A stretch of DNA of 63,811 nt, the filler included, from Perkinsus chesapeaki ATCC PRA-425 (taxonomy: Eukaryota > Protista > Perkinsozoa): the NCBI GenBank assembly GCA_013115145.1. It is 9 parts of 9 records of this genome, joined end to end, with 100 filler letters (N's around TTAATTAATTAA, not from the genome) between each part and the next. Parts side by side here need not be neighbours in the genome. Positions count along the whole stretch, not along the records: positions 32,369 to 51,177 come from JAAPAO010000652.1; positions 51,278 to 62,040 come from JAAPAO010000877.1; 7 more parts are not named here. One strand, written 5' to 3'. Positions within the stretch are counted from its first letter, which is position 1. The number at the start of each line of letters is the position of its first letter. The translations under genes were made by a program, and so were the position numbers. Under the pieces are notes generated by a model. It was not told the origin of the DNA and searched no databases. It saw nothing but the letters and a program-made list of their open reading frames with translations. Shown piece after piece: positions 9,914 to 55,496 of this stretch.

Positions 9914-10231
9914 TGAGGCAAGGTTTTTTCGCCTTGAAAATAAGTGGTAAGATTATTGTTACATCCGATGTGGAATACTATAATACCAGTTTATATTTAT
10001 ATCCTTTTTTCTATCATTCACAATTTCACTGCGGTTCTCAGTTATTCTCTGTCTAAGTCACTTGTCACAGGCGAGCGCGATTTGAACGGAAAAGTTTGAC
10101 GGCGAAACCGTTACCTTCAATGTCTGCTTTGTCATGCTTTAAGGTCGAGAGTTCCAATCTAGCCTTACTCAGCTGCTCTGACACATCCATGTATCTAGGA
10201 GCGACTCACAGGTGAAAAAGGTTCTTTATTA

Positions 10232-10395: not shown

Positions 10396-10486
10396 TAGGC
10401 CTTCTCGCAAATGGCACAGAGCCTCGGCGAATCGTCAGTAAATTGTGTTGGATGGCCCCAAGTTCGATCCCCAGGCCAGTCATTTT
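10396..10486 (+). ncRNA. Degenerate tRNA-like / SINE-head element
   Basis: B-box AGTTCGATCCCC followed by AGGCCAGTCA and a TTTTT Pol III-type terminator. Weak A-box (TCGCAAATGG) upstream; stems are imperfect. Confidence 0.45.
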
Positions 10487-10590
10487 TCTGCGGAAAAACA
10501 TTTTTGCCCGCAAGGCAGTGTTGCAGGAAGATGTGATGAGGGCTCTATCGTAGCGCGGTGACTGGCGAGCGCGCGTGAGTAGCTATGTAT

Positions 10591-22455: not shown

Positions 22456-22534
22456 GTCCGTCGTTGGGGATCGAACCGGCGACGTGTACTGCACACTGTG
22501 CAGGCATGCACTGCACGCATACGGCGAGACGGGT
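22456..22534 (-). ncRNA. Degenerate tRNA-like / SINE-head element
   Basis: Minus strand CCCGTCTCGCCGTATG...GCCGGTTCGATCCCCAACGACGGAC: B-box plus partial acceptor stem CCGTC/GACGG. Confidence 0.5.
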
Positions 22535-22570: not shown

Positions 22571-22629
22571 TGGATTTAGGGTATCTTTGTAGATCTGGAT
22601 TCCAGATCTACAAAGATACCCTAAATCCA
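22571..22629. repeat. Perfect 59-bp palindrome (29-bp arms, 1-nt centre)
   Basis: TGGATTTAGGGTATCTTTGTAGATCTGGA-T-TCCAGATCTACAAAGATACCCTAAATCCA. Confidence 0.95.
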
Positions 22630-37318: not shown

Positions 37319-37784
37319 TACTAATAGTACTAAACGTGCATACCATTACAGAATACTTATATACTTCCCTTTCAATAAACGGTTGATTTATGTTACCAAA
37401 TAATAAGTGTTATTGAAAGACACCTGTTGTTCGTCGTTATTATTATGTACATCTTAACTGTTAATAAATTCACCAACGTTCCATCATTTACATTACCGGA
37501 AATGGCAGCAGAACGTCTCGTTTGGTAAGAAAGTGCCCGTTTTGGAAATCCTTCGAAGGAGCGAACACGCAGCCAAAGACATTCCTAGAATGAGCAAAGT
37601 TGTTATTGTTCGATATTAGCATTTTACGCAGTGTATAGTTTTACGGACGGTCCGTTGGGACGCGAAGTCAAATCGATTATAATGGCACGCGCGAGAGATT
37701 CGAGTTCGGAAAAGGTATTAGACATATTGTGGTGACAAATTGGCGCGTTGTTGTTGTTGTTGTAAAGTGTAGTAGTATTGTCTA

Positions 37785-40298
37785 ATGGCTACTACAGGAT
37801 TGGTGAAGTCGATCCATAGCGATGTTGCTGTCTACGACTTGGCAGCGGGAAAATCTACACCTCAATTTATGGAGGAGGCCAGGAAGACTAATAAATCATT
37901 ACGATATGATAATGATTATAGAAGGAGGCTTGAACTATTACAGGACTTTGAGTTCCCTACTACTAGCACTACGTAGTATCTTGGGGTTGAGTCTGCAAGA
38001 TGCACAAAAGGTCGGTTTAGGGTCCGCGTATCGCCCGACGGAACGTGTATTCTGGCTACTGGAGTATATCCGCCAGAGATACGTCTCTATGAAACTGCTG
38101 AGCTCGGATTGAAGTGTGCTAGAAGGCTCGACCAGGAAGCTATCGATGCCATATTCCTTGGAGAAGACTACAAGAAGTTGGCGATCCTCGGATCTGATAG
38201 GACCATTGAGTTCCATGCCCAATATGGAAAGCACCATACACTTAGAGTAGTAAGGGAAGTTATAATGCTTATAAGGTATAAGGCATTAATAGTGTATAGA
38301 AAACCTTATAACAGTTAAATCTCTCAATCGTATTTCCTATTTGAACATTACTCAGGCGAACACTGCGGGTGTCCCAAAGGCTACTGCTCCTCTCTCCCTC
38401 TCGTGCCTTATAACCTACTTTTATTCTGTACACTCTCCGCCTGTCTGTTAGCAAGTACATCCACTTGGTGGGATCAATGTTTCGGCACTGGAAAGGAAAC
38501 TGTAAAAATTGATTCCTCTATGTGGTACTCGTAACCTCACCCCATTCCCGAAGGCCATGCTAAAATGTAATTATGTTTCATCAGATTCCAAAGTTCGGTA
38601 GAAACCTTCAATACGATAGGCAGACGTGTCTTCTTTATATAACATCATCAACCTCGGAGATATTCCGTCTGGATCTGGAGGAAGGCATTTTCGCTGCTCC
38701 TCTGGTCGCAAGAGATATGGAGTTTGTCAGTAAGTATCCTCTTAATTATTCTGACACCTCTAGCTGTCCCATTTCAGACGCCTCAGCATTAGCTCCTAAT
38801 GGTGCCCCACTTCTCCTGTTTGGTGGCTCAGACGGGCATGTCCAGATTACCGACACGAGGGAGGGCCCGAGTGCGATCGCCTCGGGAGTAGTTGCTCCGG
38901 CTGAGGTTCGCTCAGTAGCTTGGAGTCTGCCTGACTGCATGCAAGTCGCCGCCGGTGATATTTCCGGGCGCGTGACGGTTTGGGATGTCCGTTCTAGTCA
39001 CCCATTAGCCGAAAGGGACCATCGGAATGGTGTACCAGTTCACACTGTGCAGTGGCAGTCTCGCGGTGTACTGTGCTCCTCGGACTCGCGAACGATCACC
39101 TTCTGGAGGCCGGATGTGAACCGTGGAGAAGTCGTCACATCAATACCCTCGAAAACTACTATCAACAACGTGGCATTGTGGCCGGGCTCTGGCGTGGTTT
39201 TTGCGGCGCGTGACGAACCTAGAATTGGGACTTATTTCATTCCCGAGTTGGGAGTGGCTCCCGAATGGTGCGGGTTTCTGGACGGTCTTACTGAGGAGAT
39301 GGAAGAGACCAATACAGGGGCTGTCACTAGCGTTTATGATGACTATGTATTCGTCACGAAGAAAGATCTGCAGCAGCTCAGTGGTGCTGATAGTCTTATT
39401 GGCACTAACCTGCTTAAGGCTTATATGCATGGTTATTGGATGGACAGGAGACTGCATGATAAGCTTGTTAGGGTAATAGGGAGGGGGTATGGTTGGAAAT
39501 ATATAAGGGCATGCTGTTAGTGACAGGAATGACTAGTGAGATGCTTCTAGAAACTGTCTCTGTACGATATCCCAAATTGGCTATCTGAAGAATATGCTTT
39601 AGGTGTTTGGAATGATTGCGCCATTTTTCATTTACTTCGAGATCATATATGTTCCAACTTTCAGTTGTCCGACACCACATTCTCACTAGAGGAGCACGAG
39701 AAGGAGCGTATTGAGCAGGCAGTGGATGCCAAGCGACCGATGAGGCGACCGGCACCGAAACACGTCGACAAACCGAAGGTAGTAGGGAAGGGTGTGGAAT
39801 TTAATCTCGCCTTTGTTGTCACTGGAAATCGGTGAGTACAGTACGGGTAAGGTGGGGGGCCAAACAAAGACGCTGGTGATGTGTTTAGGTTAACGCACGG
39901 TTCATGGAGAAGGCAGCGAGCGAGTCGGCCAAACAAGTGTTGGAGGATGATAGATTCGCCAAGTTGTTCAGCAATAAGGACTTTGAGATTGAGGAGGTTA
40001 GGGGAGGTACTACTAGAGGGAGGGCCCGTGGTTTGGATATCCCATACCAACTTTTCGTCCCGTCCCGGTTTATGTTACGTGTCGATCTAGGCTTTGTATT
40101 AGCACCTGATGGATTTCAGATGAAGTTGAGGCTGCTCTTAACGATGCACCGGCTACTACCACTACTAGCACTCTGTCCGCGGATATACTGACAGCAAAGG
40201 GAGATGAGGCGACAAGTCATAGTGGACGGGGGAAGGGTAAAGGAAAGGGAAAAGGGAAGGGAAAGGGGAAAGGAAAGGGTGGTCGAAGGAGATTCTAA
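37785..40298 (+). CDS. NOL10: Nucleolar protein 10 / Enp2 (WD40, NUC153), multi-exon
   Basis: [80 protein letters not shown]; ends in (GK)n-GGRRRF. Confidence 0.92.
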
Positions 40299-40588
40299 TA
40301 ATACCAATACGTCAATAACTTGTTCATTAAATCATTACGTTTCTACTGCTAATCGATATAAGGAGATGGGTTAAGTGGTATAATGGTGGGGGCACTAGAT
40401 TGGGGTACAGTAAGAAGGGAAATGAGCACTTGCGGCAGCATGAAGGGAAGTTCGAGCAGGTGTTCTTATATCCAAATGGTAAAGGCCTTAGGATTAGTGC
40501 ATGAAAAGCTGCCTCTCACCAACTTGTCAGATTCACGAATCTGTGATTTGTTTTTGTTAGTGGCTTTGTTGCTGCTGTAACTAGTTGA

Positions 40589-43500
40589 ATGGACCATCAA
40601 CATAAATCGAGTTCTGGTCTCCGGCAGACCAATAAGCCTCATAGTGGCAAGAAGGTGTTGGACAAGGGAAGGAGGACGCCGGTGAAGGCGACTGCAGTTG
40701 GATATAGTAAAGATATAAGTAAACAGGATAGGAGGAATCAGGCTAAGCAATTAAGGGATAATAGAAGGCAATCGTTGATAGCGAAGAAGCGAGGGCCGTT
40801 GGGGAAGGAGGGCAGTAAAGGGCCGATTAATGTGGCATTGGTTGCCTTTAATGGCGATGTTGATATGCGGAGACTGTGGGGATGCTTTGGGAATGAGATG
40901 GATTGGAAGGAGGACTCTGTTAATGTGGCAACGCTTGAAGGAGTTAGGGTGATAGTGTCACCGTTGCGGACGATTCACAGTTGCTTGGATACGGTGCTGG
41001 CGTGTGATGTGATGGTAGCTGTATTTGTGGGGGACAGATTGTGTGACCATGAGCATAGTGCTTTTGATGAGCTTGGATATGATATACTTACCAACCTTAA
41101 AATGAATGTAAGTTGGTAATCGAAAGGTCCCGGGTTCGATCCTCGGTTGGGGTATTTTCAGGGTTTACCGGGTGAGGTTATTGGTATAACAGCTCCGTCC
41201 AAGAGTAATGGAGAGGATCTGCTATCTGATAAGCAATTGGATGGAAGTCTTAAGACTGTTCAAAGGTAGGGCCTACGATTGAGGGGGCAATCTGAGCAGT
41301 ATAGGGTATGCTGAGTAGTTCGATGAAGTTAATACTTATTCGTTGATGAGGGTGTCCTTGTAGTAATACTTCTCAGGGCAATGATACTGCATATAGTGGC
41401 CCTATAATAGTGTGGAGTCAGGCAGTGATGTTATAACAGTTGGAGGGACAGCTTTCAAAGCATCATCATCATCAAGCTTCCGATTAAGCTCTTCATGTCG
41501 AAGGTTTTATACTTAGTTTTATTATTATATTATCTCGAGGTTTTGTCAGACGATTATTTATTAAAGTCGCCTGTTTCTACATATCACATGTTCAAGTGTT
41601 ACCTTATAACTTGCTGTATTCTCTTGTCAAGGTACCTGCGATCTGAGTTGCCTCGTGCAGAGAGTAAAATGTATAACTTGCCTAAGGATTGTGAAGGTCT
41701 GCTTAAATGTCTACAGGCATGTGGCATTGGGGCTAGTAGTGAAGGGATGAAATGGAGAGAGGAAAGGGTAAGTGAAGTATTCAGTCAGTCAAAGAGTCGT
41801 ATGTACAAATTTATTAATGTTCTCGTAGTTGGATTAGTATAGGGGATGTCATACTGTATTCATAGTCTAGCAGGCACACACAGCTATATTTAGTCGCTTT
41901 CATGGATAGTAGAATGTATCAGATGAGTTTGGAAAGTGTATAATAGTATCATCGGCTTAGGTGGATTGGTAGAGCGTTTCGTCTGTATCCGGATGGTCGT
42001 AAGTTCGAATCCCTGCATCCATGTGTAGGGTTATATGATAGTGGACCGTATCCAGCCCGAAGCCGACAGCAGTGAGCCAGGCCATTGGGCAATCTCTGGA
42101 TGGGTTAAGGGAGCTGGCTTCGCTTGCAACTATGGCAATGATGATGATGGTGAAGGGGCATGTGTACATATCACCGGTTATGGAGATGCTGTGTTGGAGG
42201 GGATTACTAGCAAGGATGGTGAATTGGTAAGGGGCATTTGGGGGGGGGGAGGGTTGGAGGATTATGTACCGAGTTTGAAAGAGCTAATTGTTGTTAATAT
42301 TTTTCGTGTACCCAAGCTGGCACTGCCTGTATCATTAACATTTCTATAATAGTAAGTGTGTCCACATATTTTCAAAACGTGTTGGCTAAACTTCAACTCG
42401 CTCCTCTCAGACAGCTTCCCTTTTTTGGGTTTCTACATGAACGCGAGTTGAATATTTTTGTCGCACTGTTGTTGCCGTTGTTGCTTTTTACACTGTGCCT
42501 CCTCCTCATGTGCTGCCCGTTCGGTCAATGGGTGTACTAGTGTCAGCCTTTGTGCCACTTTGTTGTTGGATGTTTGCTTCTGCCACTTGGCGAGGCAGCC
42601 GCTATTATTTTCATGTGTAGATTGATCGACGGTTGTATCCTGTAGCGGAGAGGTTGAGACCATATGACCCAAGTGAAGAGGAACAGACATGGCCAACTGA
42701 GGAGGAGTTAAATGAGGCTAGCAGAAAAATGATTAAAATGCCTCAAGGTGTTAAGGGGGTGGTCTGTGCTGCTGATGGTTGTGGGTTCCATTCTTGGTGG
42801 GGGCATTTAGTGAGCGAAAACTGCCTATTAGCCAGCCACGCGCATGCGTGCAAGTTGCAAGTGTCACCTTGGAGATAGTTTACCCGCTCGAACCTCGGAT
42901 ATTTGATTTTGTATTCAGGAGCTGGTCTTAGTGACTTTGAATTAGCATGGTTAGGCGAGGAGGCTGATGGGGATGATGGGGATGATATGATGGTTGATAC
43001 TGAGGTCAGGGGGGGGTCTGGAGGTTGGAGGATGTACATTTCTGCATTATATTTATATTGAAAGTTGGAGACATATTGATAGTTCTGGTGACTTTTGGGG
43101 GGGAATGAGTGTCACCTTGGGCATTAACTCGGCCATCTTGTTGAGTGGGAAGGTATGTCTGTGGCGTTATCATAATACAGATAAGATTGATAATAATGAA
43201 GTAATACTTCATTACTTGAAGACTATATGAATTTGTTATTACCAAATTCAACTCTACTCTTCTACTACCAATACAATGACCGACAGTTGGATCTTGGTAT
43301 TGTGCCGTTTACTACTAATAATGCTCTGTCTTGCGTCACTCGCCCCGAAATTGTGTGTATTTTATAGGGAGCAGCGGATAAGACTACCGAAGAGCAGGTT
43401 GAAGTGAAGCATAAGATAGAGATGGAAATGAGATCGAAGGAGGAAATGGATTTCCCAGATGAGGTTGATACACCATGTGATCAGCCAGCAAGGCAAAGGT

Positions 43501-45266
43501 GCCGAGGGTGGGGATCGAACCTGCGACCATAGGCTTCCGAGATTTGTCAATCGCATTTTTGGAGTACCTCGGCGCTCTTTCTGTTTGCAATATGCTACTG
43601 TAGGAGGCTGTTGATATATGTATATCTTCAACAGGCACCAGGCAACTGTGGTGGATGAAATTCTTCGATGTCCGAGACTTCCTACATACCATCTTTTTGT
43701 TTTCAGATTCCAGAAGTACCGCGGTATGCAGTCTCTCCGAACCAGCGTTTGGGACCCCTATGAGAGCCTCCCGACCGAGTACAGTAGGATCTGGGAGTTT
43801 GAGAGTTTCCAAGCGACAGCGAAGGCGTCAAAGACGGAGTACAGGAACGGTGTTAAAAGCGAAGCGAAGGAGGGAAAGTAAGTGTTCTGGCGGTTGGCCC
43901 GTTTTTACGGTTTTTCTATCAGTTATGTGACTTTGCACGTATCCGGTATGGAAGGCCTGTCGTTCGATAACCGAGTACCGTTAATTGTATCCTCGTTGTT
44001 CCGCCATGAAACCAGAGTCACGGTTATGCACGCAAGTCTCAGCAGGACGCCAGAGTAGGGGATGTTGAGGAATTTCGTGGCGAGTGACGTTTTCAGAACT
44101 GATGATGTTGTTATCAAGTCGAAGGAGATGGTGCTGATGAGGTGTGGGTTCAGGAGTCTGCCGGTGAAGCCCACATATGCTAGTGTAAGTTGCCGGCTGG
44201 TTTGATGGCGGTTTACACTGTTCGCTGTAATGAAATAGAATAATTTAATTAAGCGAGTTATAGTAACCAACTTGGTGCTAGGATGGGATTGGTCTTTGTT
44301 TCTACACCAAAAGCAAACGTCGAATGGATTCCTCCGGGGCCTAGCATCCGACGCTCTTCTATGAAGCTCCTCCCTGGCTGTGACGTGACGCCGCTGTATT
44401 GTTGTTATTGTGTGTATATTTGTTATCATTTGTCCCTTCAGACTATCAGAGGTTCTGGAGGCTCTGGTGGGTCGGCTAATGAGAAGGGTAGGATGTTGAG
44501 ATTCTTCCACCCTAATGCCAAGTCAACAACACTTGCTTGGTAGGAGAGGTTAGAGATTTCCGAATCATGTGGTCGATGTGTCTTGGCCGATTGGATATTC
44601 TAATGTAAACTACTAGCGATTTAATTAGGGTCGTTAATTGAAGTGATCGTTAAGTAATATTACACCTTATACCACTTAAGGGGAGTTTTGCGGAATTTCC
44701 ATCCGATATACTGTTTTCCTCTTGCATTCATCAGCTCTATTCAGACGTCTACTTTAGAGTGTCTACTTTACTCGAGGAAGGCACCTTGCGCTGTTGTGTC
44801 AGTTTCTACTCGCCAGTGATGTTCCCTCCGGCACCCTGTCTGATGTACACGGCTGATGGGCAGAGGCTCACGGCATGGGGTAGCATCGAGGGATCTTTCC
44901 CTGCTAAAGTGCTTATAAAGAGAATTGTTCTCACAGGGTGAGCTTTCAACTCGACCGTTTTCATATCTTGCACGGTTCGACCTTAGATACCCTTATCGCG
45001 CACACAAGACAAAGTCCGTAGTTCGATTTATGTTCTTCAACCCCGAGGATATCAATTGGTTCAAGCCAGTCGAGCTTCAATCCAAGAAGGGCCTCCGCGG
45101 TCACATCACCGAAGCACTGGGAACTCACGGTTATATGAAGTGTCGATTCAACGGGCAAGTGACTCAAGATGACACCATAATGATGCCCCTTTACAAGAGG
45201 GCCTTCCCTAAGTGGTACCCTCCAGCGTGGGGGATGCCTGAGACGTACAAATCCACTGATGAGTAG
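40589..45266 (+). CDS. TSR1: Pre-rRNA-processing protein TSR1, multi-exon
   Basis: [20 protein letters not shown]...[43 protein letters not shown]...[15 protein letters not shown]. Confidence 0.93.
41108..41161 (+). ncRNA. 54-nt TSR1 intron consisting almost entirely of a tRNA 3' half (Thr-like, GGT loop) plus T4
   Basis: GTAAG-TTGGTAA-TCGAAAGGTC-CCGGG-TTCGATC-CTCGG-TTGGGGTA-TTTT-CAG; the T-stem pairs fully; splicing restores KMN|GLPG. Confidence 0.7.
41951..42022 (+). ncRNA. Degenerate full-length tRNA-like element at the 3' end of a TSR1 intron (acceptor AG at 42027-42028)
   Basis: A-box-like TAGGTGGATTGGTAGAGC and B-box AGTTCGAATCCC. Confidence 0.55.
43499..43545 (-). ncRNA. Antisense tRNA 3' half (Phe-like) forming the 5' end of TSR1 intron 43499-43706
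   Basis: Reverse complement reads CGGAAGCCTATGGTCGCAGGTTCGATCCCCACCCTCGGCAC(C). The donor GT is the antisense of the discriminator A plus the first C. Confidence 0.55.
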
Positions 45267-45399
45267 TTACAGCTGGACATATAGGAAGATTTGCCGAACA
45301 ACAACAACAACAACAACACCAACTACCAACGTCGTTTCTCTACCAACGAGAGGGTGTTGATTTCATTGCTTTAATTTTGGTGGTGGTAGTTTTTCCGTA

Positions 45400-48122
45400 A
45401 TGGTTGAGCGGAGCGAAGCAGATGATATTGATGATGAGGAGTTTATGAGAATGGCGTTGGAGGAGTCTGAGAAGGGAAGGCTCACTGCACCACCGAGTAG
45501 GCAGTGGTGGAAGAAAAGATTACTTATAGAGGGCACTTTTGCTTGGACAATATCTCGCTTTGACTCGAAGTATAAAAATATTTAACAGTCAAAGTTTCTG
45601 AGTGTTTAATATGTTTTGCTGCTGTATACAAGTACTGCAGGTTAGCGGTGTTCAGGCGGTCACATGTTATCCTACATCTTTAAAAGTGTATTGGTATAAA
45701 TGGAAATGTCGATGAAAGGTGTTCCAAATTTAGCAGTGGGATCTTCGTGGGTTGTATAATACACAGTGCATTGCAAAAAATATAGTAATTGAATCTGGTC
45801 TGGGTCTTCCGTCCATCACTCTCAGCTATCAGATGAGGCTATCGGGTCAGGTGGTAGAGCAAGTGTCATAGTATGAAAGTAAACTTGATAGTTCATATAG
45901 CTTTTGGGATTCACATATATTTTTGGATTATTCTATGCAGCAAAAAAGTAGATTATCTCGTATCTCCACTCAATACTGAGTGTCATCGAGTGGAATTCCT
46001 AACATGGGTAGTATAATGAAAATCGAAAACATGACACTAAATCGATCAACCGTTTCATGCCTATCTATTGATATCTCGGCGCGCGAATTTTCCAGCGTTT
46101 CTAGTGTTATATTTCTCTTTTGTTCAGATCCTTGGGTTGGCTGTGTAATAGTATATAATGGTAAAGTGGTTGGTAAAGGGTATCATATTAGGAAGGGAGG
46201 ACCACATGCTGAAGTAAATGCATTGAGAGATGTACAGCAGAATAGTGAGTTACAAGAAGGGAGATACGTTTCATAGGTCCAATATTATCATTTATAGGAA
46301 AGCTAGAGTGGCGAATCAATATCTATATTTTTCAAATGTCTGGGAAATCTTGTGGAAAAGTATTGAAGTCGCCTGGAAAAATTAAATCATCGTCGAAGAA
46401 TCTATTAGTTTTCAAGAAAAGAATTTCTTGAGTGAATCGGTTTGGAAAAGTTAGTTAAAAGTGGGTAAGGTCGGCAGAACTTTTAAAGTGCTTCCCCTGT
46501 GAAATATCATTTAGAACTTGCAGATCAGATATTGATACGGATGGTAAGCTGACGGCCTATGTTACTCTAGAGCCCTGCTCACATTACGGCACCACTCCTC
46601 CGTGCTGTAATGCTTTAATAGATGGGAAAGTTAATAGGGTTGTGGTTGGTATCGAAGACCCTGATACTAAAGTGTCTGGAGAAGGCCTTAAACGGTTAAG
46701 GGATGCTGGGGTAAGGAAACGGAGTGCGGCGGGTAGTTGGATAGTTTGACGGCAAATGACCAGTTATCACGTGCAAGTGGTCTACTGTTGGATTGTTGCC
46801 GTTATTTCTGGAACTGCGTATCGCCTATTAGGCGTACTATACAACACCTTGATGTTGGTTGTATCCAGCACAGTTTAACAACTTCACCAGTTTTGGCTGG
46901 ATCACGACGCGCCCTTCGCTCTCCCACACGAATGCTCGTTCCATTGGACATAGTCTTCCATGTCAGATTGACGTTAAAGTCGGTTGCCTGGCTGATGATA
47001 TCACAGAGTCCCTCCGCCCATATATCAAGCATCGCCGTTACGGTCTGCCACTAGTAATCGGTAAAGTTGCTGCGTCACTCAACGGTATGGTATGTTGTGA
47101 AGATGGAACAAGTCAGTGGATAACAGGCAGCAAGGCGAGGGAAAACAGCCATTTAACTTTGCGCGCGCCCTCGCAATCGATTTTGGTTGGCGTGGGAACG
47201 GTGGTTGCTGATGACTGCTCTTTGACGGTGAGGGGAGTGGAGGGTGTGGAGAAGCAGCCATTGAGAGTTGTGTTGGATCCGAGAGGGCGTATCTTGCGCA
47301 CTGCGAAGATTTTGAGGACGGAGGATGCGCCGACGTTGGTGGTGGTCGGCAGGGGAGCTGATACAAGTGGGCTCGAAGGAGTGGATATTTTGGAGGTCGA
47401 TTGGGATGCCCACGGCGGGCTGGATTTGGTGGCTGTTCTAAGGCATCTGGCAGACCGTGGAGTTTTTCAAGTGCTAGTTGAAGGCGGAGCGAAGACGATG
47501 ACAAAATTTATCGAAAAGGATCTGGTAGATGAACTCATGGTGAGTTATGGTTGTTGATCTGGGGGCGCAATCATTCCCGTTTGTAGTGTAGAGATACGGT
47601 AGAGGATTTGATGGGTAAGGCTCGGAAATATACAGATGTTGTGATAGAATTCCTATTATGATACTCGTATATCTCCGAGTTTTATTACTACACTTTCTAT
47701 TATTAAAGTGGTAATTATATAATTAGAAAGGAATATGTTTTCCGGTTATTGGTTTGACCTGAAATGGTTGTAGTTGCGGGGATACTGAATAGTATCGGTA
47801 TTTGATACAGAAGGATATTCAGCCAAAAATATTCTGCTCCGAAGATCGATGTTACCATCTTCATACATTGCATATCAAACTGGCGCTGAAGTAGAAATTC
47901 ATGGAAAGTTTCAAGCTCCGAGCGGAAGGAAACAAGTTAACTGTCTCGCCTTTGACATAGTTCTTTATGCAGGTTTATTATGGTCCTGTTTTACTCGGTC
48001 GCGGGGGTTCTCCTTTTTACATTTCACAAGACCCTCTCACTATTACCGATGCCAGACCGTGGCGCCTTCGAGGAGTCATTCAACTCGGTGATGATGTTCG
48101 CTGCGAATATCGAAGAGGATGA
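45400..48122 (+). CDS. ribD: Bifunctional riboflavin deaminase/reductase RibD (5 exons)
   Basis: TAPP|NPWVGCVIV...HAEVNAL...AYVTLEPCSHYGTTPPC...KVAASLNG...SQWITG...ILVGVGTVVADD...VLVEGG...DELM|VYYGPVLLG...QLGDDVRCEY; GT-AG junctions restore the frame. Confidence 0.95.
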
Positions 48123-48210
48123 AAACGCAGCGATTAACATGCTGTTGGTTTCCTTATAGAACTTGACTTGTGTTATAAAGTTGGAAGGATATACTAGTAA
48201 GGTTTGGGGA

Positions 48211-49740
48211 ATGATGCAAAGTCTGCCAAATGACACCGTGAGCACGGTATACGGTAAAGTGATTGATAGAGCTATGAGTAGATTCCAGACGGAATTGAGA
48301 AGAGATGATGAAGAGGGGAGAGGCAGAGCTATACGTACGTTACCACTTCCAGGGTTGATATGTACATCTGTTTTGGAAGACTTTTCTAATGCTAGAATTT
48401 ACTCAAGCACTGGTAGGCAATGTAGAAAAATAGTAGAGTGATTGATGGAAAATGGGTTACTGCTGAAAAGAGACATTCACTTCTTCGGGAGTATATAGCA
48501 TATCGCTTGGCTTTGAAATATAACCGATGAAACTAACGTTAATCGCTATAGTTGTCTGGTGGAAATATCTCCCAGTTTTGGCACTCTAGACTACTCTACG
48601 GCGGAAGATGAATAAAAGCTGCTTCGTTGTATAAAGGATGAAACACTTTGTTCATCTGTCTGCGAGTAGAGAAAATTTTGGTAGAGCCTCCATCAGAATC
48701 GTCGTCAGCGCTTGTTGCATAATCTTCCACCATCTATTTCGTCTGCCGAGTCTACGTGATACGCTCAGCTGGGCAAGAACTATAGGAACTCCAAACGTTG
48801 TGTCAGGTGCGGACGTGTTGGGGGCTATTAAGAGTCGATGGATGCATTTAACTAGTGAGTGCTATGTTAATGGTGGTCATCTACCCGCTGGAATCAAACG
48901 GCCGATTAGTGCAAAGTAGGCTGAGTTGGTGGCCTGCGAAGTTTCTTAATTCGAAATCATGTAGCAGCGAAAAGGACGACGCTAAACGAGCAAGGATAGA
49001 CTTGGTTGAAGAAGAGGAGAAGGTCGAGGCAAATGGATCTGATGATGATGAAGAGGAAGATGATGAGTTTGCCGATGAATTCGATGACGCCGAGTTCGTG
49101 CACGCTACTGCGGCGGGACAGAAGGCATCTGATGAAGAGCATCAGCGAGTTGCTGCAGCTGAGGCGAGGGAGCATGAAAGGGAGGAGAGGCAGAAAGAGA
49201 TAGAAAGGAAAGAGGTAAAGTTATGTAAAGTGATGAGGCTTTACATTCATTTGGTAGTTGGAAGAATGGTCCAAAATAAAAGGAGAATTAATCGATGAGG
49301 AGCGCTTGCTGGCTGAGGAGGACTCTATGTGGAAACAAGTGCGGTTGAAATGTTAACGCTATGGCGAATTTATTGGCTAGATCCCCGATCCTGTTAACTG
49401 CCCAGTGAAAATGTACGCCAATGTGGAAGTGACGGAGATGGGTTCGAATAAGAGAAGTAAATGGAATGTCTCAGCTGACCGAATTCTCTTATCTACACCT
49501 CGTGGTGAATGGTTAGCATCGAGCATGGAAGTAAGCCGAAAACAGCCAGCCCGCGGAGCTTCACGTGCTCCAATGGAAATGTGCTCCTCAAAATCATTTA
49601 CAGTGCGGCGATAGAAAACATTTTTCTCAGTGGGATACATGCCGTCACGGAATATTCTATATCAATGGCAATTTTGTTAATTCACGCATGCCTGTTCTTT
49701 CAGGGTTCGTTTCTTCATCTCGGCGCGGAGACGGCCGAAT
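48211..49740 (+). CDS. Probable TFIIA large subunit (TOA1/GTF2A1-like), multi-exon; 3' end approximate
   Basis: N-terminal VSTVYGKVIDRAMSRF...DVLGAIKSRW, acidic middle (DDDEEEDDEF), C-terminal ...KRSKWNVSADRILL...GEWLA... Order and spacing resemble TFIIA alpha/beta; recognised by eye only. Confidence 0.45.
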
Positions 49741-50128
49741 AACGTTTCTCGTTCAATGAGATGCGTGTTGTGTTTCGTAAATTGATAACGAGCTGTCGAG
49801 GCCTGTGGGCTCGGGTAGTCTGCTTCCTTGCTTAGCGGATTCGATCTCGTACCGCTTCGACGGGAGAGGCCGTCCGTCATGAGAAGATTCAATCGTGTAT
49901 AACACTATTGCATTAACGCGGGAGAGTAGGGTTGAAGATGACAATATTGTTTGCGAGCTTCTCCTCCCCTTAATGTTCACAGAAACACGTGACCAGTGGT
50001 AGTGTGCTTTTGAGACTGTGTCTACCAACTAGTGGCATAACGATCGGAACTCACCCCGCTTGACATTGACTAAACTACGAACTAAAGAAGGGCAAGCAAC
50101 ATCATCACCATCATCATCATCATCATCA

Positions 50129-51079
50129 TTACATCCGATACATCACCAGCTCCTTCGCAGGTTCGCCATGTACAGACCTCCCTAGGCAAAGCGAAATAAA
50201 ACCGTCTCCTTCAGTTTTGATAGTAATAGACTCGAGCGTGAGGTTGTCAATACTAATAGCCGTTCCAAACACCTTTATCTTGTTCTCGTTGAGCCTTCTA
50301 GACAATTTGCTCATCTTGTCAAGGTCTATTTTCATGTCACCCTCTCCTTTTAACTTGATGTATGGTATTTCCAATTTTCTGCCATCGCTCGAGTATAATT
50401 CAAATCGGGCTTCCAAATCCTGACCATCACCTTTCATGTCGATAGCAGCTTCAGTTACAACGCCGAAGAAATCAAACATATAATACCGACCGTCTCTAAG
50501 CGTGCTTCCTGAGAGCGTCGGTCGTCGATTACTTACCTTCACAGGTATATTTTGTGGTTTGTCGAGTGCCGTGTGTTTCCCCTTCTTGGCCGCATGATGA
50601 CCTTCCTCGCTGGTTTTACGCTTCCTTTTCGACGACGGTATCTTATCCAGTACCAAGTTCATGTTTCCTAGTTCGAGGGTGAGGCGACCGTCTTGACTTG
50701 GAATGATTTTGAGAGAATCCTGGGAAGCGTATTCGAAGCCTGGTAGTTGATTGAGCTGATTGAACCAGCCAGACAGACCATCCAATACCCCCCAGGGACT
50801 TATCCTGTACACATCTTCCTTGAACGATTGACGCTCCTCTCTTCTCTCTTCAAGAAGTATCTCGCAAGTTTCAATCCACTTATGAGGTTCAGTTGGTGTA
50901 GAATAACGAAGGTGTAAGACCGGTTTATCTTCCCATCTTTCTATATCGGCGCAGAATTCATGGAAGGGGAGGTTAGGGAAGGTGAACAGCTTTTTGTTGT
51001 GGCAGTAGGTACCCCACAATTCACCAGCGAAAGCCTTGACAATGGCTAAGGGCAAAACCAGGGTTTTAAGGGTGGGCAT
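50129..51079 (-). CDS. Intronless secreted protein with two GxY-initiated modules and a basic linker
   Basis: 316-aa ORF with signal MPTLKTLVLPLAIVKAFAG; WGTYC and DGRYY modules; KRKRK linker. Confidence 0.8.
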   Translation of the reverse strand: MPTLKTLVLPLAIVKAFAGELWGTYCHNKKLFTFPNLPFHEFCADIERWEDKPVLHLRYSTPTEPHKWIETCEILLEERREERQSFKEDVYRISPWGVLDGLSGWFNQLNQLPGFEYASQDSLKIIPSQDGRLTLELGNMNLVLDKIPSSKRKRKTSEEGHHAAKKGKHTALDKPQNIPVKVSNRRPTLSGSTLRDGRYYMFDFFGVVTEAAIDMKGDGQDLEARFELYSSDGRKLEIPYIKLKGEGDMKIDLDKMSKLSRRLNENKIKVFGTAISIDNLTLESITIKTEGDGFISLCLGRSVHGEPAKELVMYRM

Positions 51080-51401
51080 TCAGCACGGTGAGAGTACACG
51101 AACAAATCTATATCTAAATAGCGTGCCCCGACAAAAACGTCCACAAATTAAATGGGTAAAAACGTCACATCCTCCAANNNNNNNNNNNNNNNNNNNNNNN
51201 NNNNNNNNNNNNNNNNNNNNNTTAATTAATTAANNNNNNNNNNNNNNNNNNNNNNNNNNNNNNNNNNNNNNNNNNNNGCACTCTTTGAACTGAAAAAGGG
51301 CTTATACCAGCAGCTCGTTGGTAGGTGTGATGATGAGGCTTCGGAATGCATCAAGGTGGGGGAAAATTGTTTCAGATTTGCAATATAAGAAATACCAGAA
51401 T

Positions 51402-54400
51402 TCAGATTTGCCGATGATGGGGAGAGATGGGGGAGCAGCCCAGAAAGTAACTCAAACATCTCCTACACTTCCCATCAAGAGCTAATCGGTTCCGGAATTT
51501 GCCTCCCGTTAAAACAGAAAGACACAGGAAGGTTGACGCGCGGATTTTTCAACTCACCAAGATTCCTCTGATGCCTTGAATCGGTTTGACACGATTGTCC
51601 GAGGTAGGGTCCTCCAGTAACATATCATCCCATCCTATCAGCTCCTTTAACCAGTCGATCGTACAATGCTTGGAGGCGAGCTGAGGCAGCGATGATAACA
51701 TCACATAGTGCTCAACCAGGATGAACCAAACCGCCTACCTGATCCACGGAGAGTCGCCCTCGGGTCAGGAGACCAGTGACGCCGACTGGCCTGCTCAATT
51801 GACTAGCAGTGGCTCCGTCGGCGTTTGGAGCTTGCAAATGTCGATGCTTCTCCCGAGACTGTGTGTCCTTTATCACAGGCACTAGCCGTTTCATAGCGTC
51901 AAGATACCTGAGGGAATTGCAACCTGAGAAATATCTTCCCCCTTACTTCTGCCATCCTGACTCGCCGTTCTTCCCTCCAGTAGTGACGAAGAGTGTCGAC
52001 TCTAACTCTGTGGCCCACCGACGGCATCGTTCGCTCTTGCTCCTAAAGGGTTCCCCGATATGGGCAGGGTCCGCCTGTTGGTTCATCACTCACCCCTCGC
52101 CAGTAGCGGCAGCCTCCTCGGTGACATCACCAGCCTCGAAGAGCTTTCTGAAGCCTTCGGTGGCCTTCTCTCTATACAGCTTCCTGGGGTTCACATGTGG
52201 CGCTGTGGTGATGTCTCCGCTGGGACTGAGAGGCTTCACTCCACGAAAATCAAAGTACACAGCACCTACCTGAAGAGCCCACTGGGTGACTTGGGCTCCT
52301 CCGTCCGCGGTGCTCGAGATGGGCTTGAAACGGACTGAAAAGGACAGTGACGGGACAACAGAGTCAAGTCGCTTACACTGCGCCGCTTCGATCCACCACC
52401 TGGTGCCGCCTGCTGCTGCTGCCCTCGCCTTCGTTTAGTCCTAAAACCATACGGCTTGTCATCTACAGGGACCCTATCCTCTGCCCTAGCCTACTTTGAC
52501 GAACCGGCATCCTCCGCTGCCACCGCCGCTGAGCGTTTGATCCCTCGGGACTTCCGGCCGACACTTACTATATCTGCAAGCAGCAGCGTGATCAGCTCCT
52601 ATCATCATCGCAGCAAGCGGTGGCTTACCATCTTCATAGTCACTTCCATCATCATCCTCCTCATCAACACTAGCTTCGCTCTCCAGGGCCTCAGCATCAT
52701 CCATGGCCACACTGCACGGGGTTGGTGGCGGCTCACTGGGGGACTGATACAAAGCATCAAGCTTCGGGCTTCAAGCCAGGCAAGCTCTTACTGGTTCGTC
52801 GACGGCCTTCGCAGCCTCCTCAGCCGCTTGTGCAATGCCATCTGGTGCCACTGCAGTCGCCTACAGCAACGTCAAGCCCCACTGGCATCGTTCGCTCACC
52901 TTGGGCGTCTCCGATGGCGACGGTACAACCGAGGAGTTCGCCGGGCTTGGCTTGACTCTAATTCTGATGATGCCAGATGCCGCATCTCTCTGAAAATAAC
53001 CGTCAGCTGTAGCTTCTTCCCAGCTTCTGCCGCCCTACACTATCAGCTGCTGCTGCTGCTGCCGCCGGCCCCTTGCCTCCCTGTTCCATATGCAATACTT
53101 GCTCAACTATCCTCTCCTGTACCAACACCATCAACCGACGTCACAACGAGATGTCGAGGCCTACCTGTTCCTTCCGTTGGGCCTGTGCCGCTAGCTCTGC
53201 CTTCAGCCTTGCTTTCTCCTTCTGCTTCTCCCTCAGTTCTCTCTTTTTCTCCTCTATCTCCCTCTCCTGTGCCTTCCTCGCCTCCTCGTCCCCATCAGCC
53301 TCCCCCACTGGAGCTTCTTCCTCCTTTTCCGCAGCTGCCTTAGCGGCCGCATGCCTCGCCTTCGCCGCAGCCGACCGTGCCTCGCTCTTCAATCGGCGCT
53401 CGAGACGAATCTGTTCGATCTCAACCTGACCAAACTCCTCACCCCCTCCATCCCTCTACACTCACCTCCTCCTGCTCCTTCCTGGCCTGCTGTGCCTCCG
53501 CGGAATCATGCGCCTATCCAGCCGTCATCAACCCAAACCGGTAGCTACATCAAGCCTACCCATTTATCGTAGGGGTTCGCATCCACAAGGCCCTGACAGG
53601 CCGCCAGCCTGTAGGCCTCGGCAGCGTCCATGTGGCCTCTTCGCCTCCTACTATGCCTTCTACCATCCTCATCGCTCTCTCCAGGTGTCGACGGCTGCGC
53701 CCCACTACCAGTGCTGCTCGACTCTGGTGTTCCCGGTAGGTTGCCTGAGCATTGCGATAGCTGCTGACCTATTACCCCAAAGTGCTTACTTCCTTCAGCA
53801 GCCTCTTCTGGCTTAACCCCATCCACATCCTCCCCGGTCGGAGGAGGTGTCCCACTCCTCTTCCGCTTCACCGGCGTAGCGCTCTTCGGTGGTCGTCCCC
53901 GCTTCCTCCGTGCCGGCGTCTCAGGAGACGACGCTGGCGATGCCGCCTCGGGCGTCGCCACAGGCTTTGGTGATGCCGCAGGAGTCGCCTCCAGCACTGG
54001 CGTCGATGACCCTGAGCAATCGACCTGCCACTGCCGCCTTCGCCCCCGCCGGCTTACCTTCAACCGTTTTCTCTCCCACCCGTTTCTTTCTGGCCTCACT
54101 CTTCTGTTTTTGCATTTCCTGCCGAAGCTTCCTCGTCAGCTCCTTATGCTGCGCCTCCAACTGCATCCGCTCCTCCGCTTCTATAACCGAATTGCGCTTT
54201 CGTCGCCCACTGGCTGGTGTCTGGAACAGCAGGTCACAGGTTCGATCCCCAGTCACGGCATTTTCACTACCTCTGTATCCCCATCCCCCCGAGCAGCCTG
54301 TTTGCCCAGCTCCTCCGCCATCTTGAAGGTATCAAATGTGATTGTCGGATGATGATTGACCATGCTGGCTCCGCTCAGCGGCGTTGCTGCCCCCGACGGG

Positions 54401-55496
54401 TTCCCTGAAGCCAAGACTGATGGAACGAAGAACCGTCGCACCGCCGCAGTACTCGACTTCGGCTTCGGTTCGGGCTCTATCTCCTCTCGCGTATCCAGCC
54501 ACTGCCTGTAGACTCTAGGGTCAACCTGAGCTCGGAAGAATCTTTTGCGCGGCTGAAAAGCACGCGTAACCTACCGCTTTAATTTCCTTCTTTTTCTTGA
54601 ACCAATCGTCCAGAATAATATACGAATCGCGACGGCTCTTATTAAAGCCTAAAAGACGCCACGAAGCTCTCCTAGCTCCGCCACGCACACTCAGGAGCTC
54701 ACCGATCCACACGCCGCCTTCAGCCTGCTGCAAGTCACCGTTTTTTGCCACAACTTCCTCCAGGACTTTATTGTCCTCGAAACGCAGTAATAGAAAATAT
54801 ATGTTCCGGCTCTTGCTCTGTGTTCGCAACACAGTGGCAACCTCCCTGACAGGAGGACCGCTGAAATCGGCTCCCGGCCGGTTGTCGACCTACCATATGG
54901 ATTTATCATCATCAGCTGCCTTCAGCAAGCCGTTCATGCGGCAACCTATACGGTCCCCTTGCCGGGCCTTCGCCTTCTCTATCTTACCTGAACGAGTAAC
55001 ACTGTGAATCTCTTACTGCAGCCAGCAGTTCGAACGCTGTCCTACCGCTCCAATAGCTGAATGCAAATTCAATCATATCTCTGTCCCATTCGTCATCGTA
55101 TCTCCGGAGCATCTCGGCCAAATCAGGAGCCCATTCCAGGGCTAAAACACCGAGCTCGGGATCGAGGGGTGGCAGAGGCTCCTCGGCTCCCGCACTAGGA
55201 GGTGGAGCCTGACAAGAAAGATACTCCGGAAAATTGAAGCCAACCGTATTGGGCCCGGGGATTGAACCTGAGTTGCCCGATGGAGAAATGCAAACCGTTT
55301 ATGCTAGACGCAGTGTACTGTCAAAGAGCCACGAAGACGAACGAAAATGAGGAAAGAAGAAACAGTCGAGCGACAGAAAACAATCGAAGGTAAAGAGCGA
55401 ATAAAGCAAACCGGTAGGTCTCAAAACGCAAAAACGGACGAGCTCGGCGGGATGTCCTACCGGTGGTTGGGGTGGTTGTTTCCCAACGGACGCCAT
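51402..55496 (-). CDS. Multi-exon nuclear/chromatin-associated protein with AT-hook and coiled coils (3' end approximate)
   Basis: MASVGKQPPQPP|APPPSAG..., RRKRGRPPK AT-hook, charged helices (EAQEREIEEKKRELREKQKEK) and acidic patches; introns join in frame where checked. Confidence 0.6.
54221..54270 (+). ncRNA. 50-nt intron (gene on minus strand) made of an antisense tRNA-His-like 3' end plus T4
   Basis: Plus strand AGGTCACAGGTTCGATCCCCAGTCACGGCATTTT. Removing the minus-strand GTAGTG...TTCCAG joins GDTE to TPASGRRK in frame. Confidence 0.65.
55243..55320 (-). ncRNA. Degenerate tRNA-like element in intron 1 (55209-55460) of the AT-hook gene
   Basis: Minus strand TAGCATAAACGGTTTGC (D-arm-like) ... 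CAGGTTCAATCCCCGGGCCCAATA. Confidence 0.45.

What the first reader, a model, noticed from the sequence alone, without database searches (positions are those of the whole stretch)
41108..55320. tRNA-3'-half elements that form or bound introns (possible tRNA-derived intron-generating elements)
Seen: five introns in two genes contain B-box (GTTCRATCC) tRNA-like sequence. Two tiny introns (41108-41161, 54 nt, sense, Thr-like; 54221-54270, 50 nt, antisense, His-like) are almost entirely a tRNA 3' half plus T4 terminator. In 41108 the T4 doubles as the polypyrimidine tract. At 43499 the donor GT is the antisense tRNA 3' end, and the element at 41951-42022 ends about 6 nt before the acceptor. The fragments resemble different isotypes, so this is not simply one SINE. 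Inference: tRNA fragments may be captured at breaks or reverse transcribed and become new introns, a route distinct from DNA-transposon introners.
Basis: partly seen in the sequence, partly recalled or inferred. Interest (0 to 1): 0.8.

Follow-up and report, generated by a model that had tools for sequence, protein, structure and literature searches.

The report
Old tRNA-tail introns in Perkinsus
Several introns of a shellfish parasite (Perkinsus) hold decayed tail ends of tRNA genes; one 54-base intron is almost nothing else, is spliced out, has look-alikes at many other places in the genome and appears to be shared with a sister species, so such fragments are likely an old, still unproven source of introns.

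Summary
Observation largely confirmed. Seven tRNA-3'-end look-alikes score above 16 bits against 0.17 expected; 6 of 44 annotated introns hold one, including a new one at 42764. Intron 41108-41161 of TSR1 is spliced in RNA-type contigs. Its tRNA part matches 16 other records of one DNA run; most end at the T-run, 5' ends are staggered, flanks differ, and a few run from GTAA to TTTTCAG like whole introns. Against a recent gain: the same intron site, with the same read-through (V-S-W-stop), is in a P. marinus-type sequence, and a diverged second TSR1 copy keeps it with at most 8 changes while fourfold sites differ by 41%. No target-site duplications; 50-54 nt is the normal intron size here; isotype labels are not established. 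Verdict: an old, dispersed family of tRNA-gene tails that hug splice sites. Some probably created introns, others entered old ones; creation is not shown. The scan found this pattern before on other Perkinsus DNA; the age and sequence-constraint evidence is what this window adds. Two introner surveys list no Perkinsus family in the rows seen.

The parts
41108..41161 (+). TSR1 intron 1, 54 nt, phase 0; positions 41113-41158 are a tRNA 3' half (anticodon loop, variable loop, intact T-arm, acceptor strand, T4)
   Evidence: Skipped GT..AG in X6 and X7; spliced in transcript protein P0024; T-stem 5 of 5; 16 other partly matching records in X1, 30 in X3; same site and V-S-W-stop read-through in P0025
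41951..42023 (+). Full-length decayed tRNA relic (A box and B box) ending 5 nt before the acceptor of TSR1 intron 3 (41768-42028)
   Evidence: 22.9 bits; 5' half beats 40 of 40 shuffles; intron skipped in X6; not aligned in the second TSR1 copy
42764..42808 (+).
   Evidence: 19.8 bits, T-stem 4 of 5; intron skipped in X6; P. olseni models read G-V-K-G into the same intron start
43500..43573 (-). tRNA-sized relic, antisense, whose 3' end abuts the donor of TSR1 intron 7 (43499-43706); acceptor stem 7 of 7, interior 5' half not recognisable
   Evidence: 28.5 bits, best hit; acceptor helix in the fold; intron from homology only, no RNA cover
54221..54270 (-). Intron 7 of the minus-strand gene, 50 nt; 54221-54264 on the + strand is a tRNA 3' half with T4 (antisense to the gene)
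   Evidence: 23.7 bits; junction D-T-E | T-P-A in P0021 and collinear P. olseni proteins; intron by spliced alignment; no RNA test
55247..55320 (-). Weak tRNA-like relic in intron 1 (55209-55460) of the minus-strand gene, 38 nt from the acceptor
   Evidence: T-stem 4 of 5; T-arm beats 60 of 60 intron shuffles; below 8 bits in the unbiased profile
10441..10487 (+). tRNA 3' fragment with T5 at position 74, outside the annotated genes (possibly in an unverified intron)
   Evidence: 13.4 bits; in register with 41126 and 54232 as repeat family D15
22456..22497 (-). tRNA 3' fragment outside the annotated genes
   Evidence: 17.5 bits; 22 of 30 letters shared with 54240 and with 43520
40589..45263 (+). 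Host gene TSR1 (40S biogenesis factor), 12 introns, 4 with a tRNA relic
   Evidence: Pfam RIBIOP_C and AARP2CN; homologues; spliced alignment
51558..55496 (-). Host gene 2, no Pfam family, 22 introns (21 of 39-58 nt), 2 with a tRNA relic; runs on beyond the contig end
   Evidence: P0021 exons near-identical; spliced alignment; Pfam blank

Best explanation
These are decayed copies of tRNA-gene 3' ends that lie inside spliced introns and belong to a dispersed family, and they were likely pasted into genes long ago, a subset probably becoming whole new introns and the rest probably landing in introns that already existed. Shown: the tRNA-like sequence, its place in introns, splicing of three host introns, many other genomic copies anchored at the T-run, and presence in both TSR1 copies. 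Inferred: the donors were terminator-bearing Pol III sequences (pre-tRNA copied by a reverse transcriptase that fell off around the anticodon loop, or DNA pieces of tRNA genes), patched into breaks without target duplication. Inferred: an insert in coding DNA survives only if it is spliced, and tRNA tails carry latent signals for this: anticodon-loop GTAA (donor) and the T-run (pyrimidine tract) in sense; the antisense of positions 32-33 (AG) and of 74-73 (GT) in reverse. Inferred: intron 41108 predates the split from P. marinus and its sequence has since been held near the tRNA state, by selection or by conversion among copies.
For: Enrichment: 7 hits above 16 bits against 0.17; 6 of 44 introns beat all 60 shuffles, about 0.7 expected; 5 of 5 strong hits in the four annotated genes are intronic, P 0.014. 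T-run exactly at position 74 in 4 of the 8 best hits. Copies elsewhere: depth plateau over 41127-41144, most run to 41157-41158, starts staggered 41113-41129, flank agreement only 0.44-0.78. Whole-intron look-alikes: of 7 other-locus pieces shown for X1, 3 run through CAG; pieces starting at 41116 (the G of GTAA) and ending at 41162-41163 are X1 record 4 (= X3 record 15) and X3 record 14; the consensus behind the T-run begins T-N-T-T-A-G in both runs. Two introns are almost only the fragment, which refilling of an old intron explains less simply. tRNA 3' ends lie 1 and 5 nt from intron ends in two of four long introns, Fisher P 0.0095 (side chosen after seeing the data). Source is plentiful: over 500 tRNA genes in five types in P. 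marinus (PMC3706591).
Against: No intron position was shown to be absent anywhere. Intron 41108 is at the same site in P0025 (P. marinus type), in the P. olseni partial model P0016 and in the second TSR1 copy. Its donor GTAAG is not tRNA-derived, and TTTTCAG ends 4 of the other 43 introns too. No target-site duplication: 1-3 nt at the six element introns against a mean of 1.8 in 38 others. Most other copies (13 records in X3, 5 in X1 at 41158) leave the alignment right after the T-run, so they do not share the CAG. The relics at 41951, 42764 and 43500 are not aligned in the second TSR1 copy although intron 3 is there. The remaining 38 introns show no clear shift towards tRNA likeness (median P 0.385; 14 of 38 below 0.25). 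Only 16 of 59 pieces and 12 of 43 loose-end rows were shown, each whole-intron look-alike has 7-8 other letters, and none was tested for splicing.
Confidence: 0.5

Rival explanations
1. No intron was created: tRNA pseudogene debris or retrocopies inserted into, or patched breaks inside, introns that were already there; exons are simply purged of them, and the usual 50-nt size limit trimmed the rest.
For: The datable positions are old; non-tRNA donor at 41108; no target duplication; four of six elements in long introns; three relics unaligned in the second copy; two or three elements outside annotated genes; 0 introner families for P. chesapeaki and P. marinus in a survey of 8,716 genomes.
Against: Two introns, and apparently others elsewhere, consist of little but the fragment; ends coincide with splice sites (43499, 41116-type starts); plain debris should not stay at 15% or less divergence where fourfold sites reach 41%.
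Confidence: 0.3
2. Whatever their origin, the fragments are kept as working DNA elements, most plausibly intragenic B boxes that bind TFIIIC (ETC-like sites).
For: Intron 41108: at most 8 changes in 82 nt between TSR1 copies against 18 of 44 fourfold sites, P 0.0006; W-stop read-through kept in the P. marinus type, chance 0.0011 and 0 of 43 other introns; B box intact in 6 of the 8 best hits while T-stem pairing is 1-3 of 5 in most; both orientations; no RNA fold better than shuffles in 0 of 8.
Against: Against all third positions (30 of 116) the same test gives P 0.12. The conserved letters seen in P0025 are in the anticodon loop, not the B box. The search itself selects for B boxes. Three other TSR1 relics are not conserved in the second copy. 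Conversion among copies could mimic constraint.
Confidence: 0.12
3. They are heads of one or two old tRNA-derived SINE-like families rather than independent captures from many tRNAs.
For: 54240 shares 25 of 30 letters with 43520 and 22 of 30 with 10462, 22476 and 41134; the same non-pairing T-stem (CAGG before, CCCA after the loop) recurs; 16 or more copies 82-100% alike.
Against: No shared body, tail or A-run after the T-run and no shared 5' head (flank agreement 0.44-0.78); acceptor strands and anticodon arms differ; most lack an A box (1 of 8 has a recognisable 5' half).
Confidence: 0.08

Closest known systems
Introners (intron-generating transposable elements; PMC9860276, PMC12130899; repeated introns of Amoebophrya, PMC7789003)
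   Same: Repeated sequence that makes up whole spliced introns and carries or co-opts splice signals; found in a related alveolate lineage.
   Different: Here the repeat is a host tRNA tail, copies do not share both ends, there are no direct or terminal inverted repeats, and the dated case is old. The main texts of three introner papers hold no 'tRNA', 'SINE' or 'Perkinsus'; the survey rows seen give 0 families for P. chesapeaki, P. marinus and P. olseni. One Polarella family was auto-labelled tRNA but finally classed as DIRS-like.
tRNA retropseudogenes and tRNA-derived SINEs (family traits recalled, not from a call)
   Same: Dispersed, decayed tRNA-related copies with B box, fixed 3' end and variable 5' truncation.
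   Different: End in a T-run at position 74 rather than CCA or an A-tail; no tRNA-unrelated body; no target duplication; strong tie to splice sites.
Dada DNA transposons of Perkinsus marinus (PMC3706591)
   Same: Same genus; split tRNA genes and can rejoin one end to other DNA, so a possible source of tRNA pieces.
   Different: Three of the five tRNA-targeting P. marinus families are reported to cut in the A box with 6-7 bp duplications; the fragments here start at the anticodon or variable loop and show no transposon ends.
ETC (extra-TFIIIC) B-box sites (recalled; also named in an earlier scan note)
   Same: Isolated B boxes, orientation-free, sometimes conserved.
   Different: These keep variable loop, acceptor strand and terminator spacing, so they are copied tRNA ends; occupancy is untested.

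Membership tests
Introners | Family of near-identical whole introns with shared ends | tested here: inconclusive
   16 other records in X1 match the body; 3 of 7 shown run through CAG; none of the pieces shown reaches the 41108 donor
Introners | Target-site duplication or terminal repeats | tested here: not met
   Boundary repeats 1-3 nt, same as other introns; only 43500-43573 has a 7-bp end pairing, the acceptor stem
Introners | Recent gain: position empty in close relatives | tested here: not met
   Intron 41108 present in P. marinus-type P0025, P. olseni P0016 and the second copy; intron 42748 read through in P. olseni models; 43499 and 54221 not datable
Introners | Spliced by the spliceosome at GT..AG | tested here: met
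   41108, 41768 and 42748 skipped GT..AG in RNA-type contigs; the other three host introns untested
tRNA-derived SINE | tRNA-related head with A and B box | tested here: not met
   Only 41951 has a recognisable 5' half, 1 of 8
tRNA-derived SINE | Shared tRNA-unrelated body or tail | tested here: not met
   Flank agreement behind the T-run 0.44-0.65
tRNA retropseudogene | Fixed 3' end, staggered 5' ends | tested here: met
   3' ends at 41157-41158, 5' ends 41113-41129; 5' limit is partly set by the query's own extent
tRNA retropseudogene | Mature-RNA marks (CCA, A-tail) or target duplication | tested here: not met
   T-run at 74 in 4 of 8; only 43500 ends in A-C-C, which is exon-side sequence
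Functional tRNA gene | Complete cloverleaf | tested here: not met
   ARAGORN 0, Rfam below gathering, folds no better than shuffles
Dada transposon products | Break in the A box with 6-7 bp duplication | tested here: not met
   Breaks lie at positions 32-48; no duplication
Dada transposon products | Dada transposase or termini nearby | not tested
   Only 8 proteins or ORFs were scanned with Pfam
ETC sites | TFIIIC occupancy without Pol III | not testable with these tools
   No occupancy data
ETC sites | B box conserved above neutral rate | tested here: inconclusive
   Intron 41108 as a whole is conserved (P 0.0006 or 0.12 by the yardstick); per-position changes were not shown

The most novel reading that the evidence does not exclude
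Perkinsus makes spliceosomal introns from host tRNA-gene tails without any transposon: the anticodon loop, terminator and 3' end supply splice signals in either orientation, the process has run genus-wide since before the species split, and some of these introns are kept near the tRNA sequence because they acquired a role, such as an intragenic B box.
Probability: 0.33. Interest if true: 0.85.

Novelty: new variant of a known kind. Interest (0 to 1): 0.62.

Why it matters
The source of new spliceosomal introns is known mainly where transposons leave many identical copies. A tRNA tail is a recognisable, datable label with a known donor, so if whole-fragment introns prove to be gains, Perkinsus offers hundreds of traceable intron births by a non-transposon route, which present introner screens would miss because copies are short, diverged and of mixed source. 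The constraint on intron 41108 also raises a testable question on gene regulation in a lineage next to dinoflagellates. If they are only debris in old introns, the value is modest: a repeat class that misleads gene predictors (two public-model donors here fall inside elements).

Tried and rejected
No whole genome is held, so no genome-wide count by script. ARAGORN and Rfam found no tRNA gene. Viral scan for the 41117-41139 stretch: 0 matches. A first profile (250 tRNAs) included tRNAs fetched with patterns from these elements and was replaced by one from 117 that lack them; of 445 ARAGORN calls, 377 were distinct, 127 were dropped for other loop lengths and 133 for holding a pattern. The 17.4-bit hit at 10151 lies in what reads as coding sequence of a minus-strand gene and has no TTCG; I treat it as a false positive but left it in the count of 7. 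The joint 41159 to 41121 is two copies on one contig with unknown spacing, not a shown tandem array. Exon-to-intron pairing of 41094-41100 with 41147-41153 has two G-U pairs and the wrong spacing; rejected as chance. RNA structure as the conserved trait: 0 of 8 folds beat shuffles. 2,051 TSR1 relatives (150 listed, not read) carry no gene structure, so positions in distant alveolates stayed untested. No RNA cover beyond 43005 in TSR1; this is absence of data only. Earlier-finding look-ups by place and by sequence were empty, as was.
Full report
Setting. The window is nine contigs joined by N spacers; no whole genome is held. Named homologues place it at or near Perkinsus chesapeaki: exons of P0021 are near-identical to gene 2 and P0028 matches TSR1. 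Spliced alignment of stored proteins gave 44 introns in four genes (intron 5 of TSR1 corrected to the RNA joint): median 50.5 nt, 30 of 44 at 60 nt or less. This fits the passage in PMC3101222 that most Perkinsus introns are under 100 bp (passages only). So 50 and 54 nt are ordinary lengths.

Is the tRNA likeness real? No tRNA gene is called. The B-box motif alone is marginal. A position profile of tRNA positions 44-73, from 117 tRNAs that lack my query patterns, gives 7 hits above 16 bits against a shuffled mean of 0.17, 0 of 200 shuffles: 43520, 54240, 42003, 41134, 42785, 22476 and 10151; 10462 follows at 13.4, and 55267 is below 8. I read 10151 as a coding false positive. A T-run starts exactly at position 74 in 41134 and 54240 (T4), 10462 (T5) and 42785 (T3). 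By intron, 6 of 44 beat all 60 shuffles, about 0.7 expected; the other 38 show no clear shift. Five of the seven strong hits are in annotated introns, 8% of the window (P 7e-5), but the rest is unannotated and two of the four genes were picked for holding elements; within the four genes 5 of 5 are intronic (P 0.014).

Anatomy. 41113-41158 is a 3' half with the only fully paired T-stem; the intron adds 5-8 nt with the donor in front and CAG behind. 54221-54264 is a 3' half antisense to its gene and fills the 50-nt intron but for 6 nt. 41951-42023 is a full-length relic with A box. 43500-43573 keeps 7 of 7 acceptor pairs and abuts the donor. T-stems are otherwise broken, and 0 of 8 folds beat shuffles. 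Isotypes could not be fixed: the reference set is mostly prokaryotic and partly fetched with these patterns; the His, Tyr and Gly labels rest on recall. 54240 shares 22-25 of 30 letters with four others, above real different-isotype pairs, so sources are fewer than elements.

Splicing. Contigs of X6 and X7 (RNA by guess; they skip GT..AG segments) remove 41108-41161; X6 also removes 41768-42028 and 42748-42918. P0024, a transcript protein, is spliced at intron 1. Four of nine listed runs were laid and two. The 43499, 54221 and 55209 introns rest on homology only; P0028 uses a later donor at 43499, the orthologues do not.

A genome-wide family. On 41094-41176, X1 laid 17 records (16 partly) and X3 33 (30 partly) at 82% or more. 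These runs may be the source of the window, so they show copy number, not independent occurrence. Depth is flat over 41127-41144, holds to the T-run and falls after it; starts are staggered from the anticodon loop to the variable loop; flanks agree at 0.44-0.78 and are neither a tRNA 5' half nor a shared tail. One X1 copy is listed with 0 other letters over 45 nt, though the run table has only one record at 99% or more. Most copies leave after the T-run, but 3 of 7 X1 pieces shown run through CAG, and two loci start at the G of the anticodon-loop GTAA and end past CAG, like whole 46-nt introns. Only 16 of 59 pieces were shown, the longest first, and none was tested for splicing. The relics at 41951 and 43500 are not repeated at 88% (depth bins).

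Age and constraint. P0025, an unnamed genomic ORF whose sequence equals the named P. marinus TSR1, ends L-K-M-N-V-S-W, the read-through of window intron 1 up to its stop; P0029, from a contig of the same length, holds the C-terminus, so I infer that the ORF ends at a stop and not at a contig end. W then stop has a chance of 0.0011 from intron composition and occurs in 0 of the other 43 introns. The P. olseni partial model P0016 ends at the same residue; 4 of 5 3'-partial TSR1 models end at window exon ends. A second TSR1 copy in X3 spans the intron with 8 other letters in 82 and no gap, while its introns 2, 3 and 4 do not align and 18 of 44 fourfold sites differ: P 0.0006 taking all 8 as intronic, but P 0.12 against all third positions. 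So intron and tRNA-like opening are older than the species split, and the sequence is probably constrained or homogenised. Boundary repeats are no longer than in other introns.

Mechanism. T-runs at position 74 point to the gene or the primary transcript, not mature tRNA. A fixed 3' end with ragged 5' ends fits reverse transcription from the 3' U-run; DNA capture from tRNA genes fits too, and P. marinus has over 500 tRNA genes in five types and tRNA-cutting Dada transposons (PMC3706591; parts 1-3 of 4 read). Both are inference. tRNA tails carry latent splice signals in both orientations, which explains why survivors in genes hug splice sites. I give 0.5 to 'a subset created introns in an ancestor', 0.3 to 'all entered old introns', 0.12 to a kept B-box role as the main story, 0.08 to a SINE head.

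Prior knowledge. Nine paper searches listed no report of tRNA-derived spliceosomal introns or of this Perkinsus repeat; most subscription papers are outside the library. Term searches of three introner papers gave 0 for tRNA, SINE and Perkinsus in the main text. Supplements: PMC12130899 gives 0 families for P. chesapeaki and P. marinus (2 of 9 Perkinsus rows seen, files 13-14 not searched); PMC9860276 gives 0 for P. olseni and P. marinus (2 of 11 rows, file cut); the preprint's supplements were not seen. PMC11282704, PMC7789003 and PMC13685798 were seen as passages only. The scan's own notes hold the same pattern in other Perkinsus DNA (106 notes match the words, 8 shown; 3 more); these are unchecked leads. 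They gave me the Dada lead and the ETC comparison; the GTAA-donor idea was in my notes before I saw the matching note.

Verdict. A real, apparently undescribed, old family of tRNA-gene tails tied to splice sites. It works like a weak, transposon-free introner at best and fails the introner tests for recency and target duplication. Interest 0.62; new variant of a known kind.

Noticed in passing
window 40551-42698, run X3 record 2: A second, expressed TSR1 copy about 10% different in exons (41% at fourfold sites) at similar depth, with long introns that do not align: a deeply diverged allele, homeologue or second species. Its changes also appear in X6 and X8.
   Followed up: partly
window 54988-55045 (-): Intron 2 of gene 2 holds an antisense T-loop-like 17-mer, borderline (P 0.033); possibly a seventh intronic relic.
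   Followed up: partly
window 10462, 43520, 54240, 55267: T-stem mismatches in four elements would be mended by reading CA as CG on the tRNA strand; this suggests shared ancestry or a strand-biased change. By eye, not tested.
   Followed up: no
window 42748-42760: Weak donor GTGT; P. olseni models read the same G-V-K-G here, so the first 10 intron bases look conserved between species.
   Followed up: partly
window 10591, 16600, 25021, 27393, 30316, 32269, 51178, 62041: The window is nine contigs joined by N spacers; the two host genes are on different contigs, so their closeness is an artefact.
   Followed up: yes
window 22573-22627: Perfect palindrome of about 55 nt, 80 nt from the fragment at 22476.
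   Followed up: no
window 37782-50000: Gene run NOL10, TSR1, a RibD-type gene and a 250-aa gene, in the same order in P. olseni fused models; strong G skew on the coding strand.
   Followed up: partly
run X8, loose ends at 40571 and 45388: Spliced-leader-like 5' ends on TSR1 and RibD transcripts (label recalled); may be primer sequence.
   Followed up: no
PMC12130899 supplement file 8, row 695: A 1,709-copy Polarella glacialis introner family was auto-labelled tRNA though finally classed as DIRS-like; worth checking for a tRNA tail.
   Followed up: no
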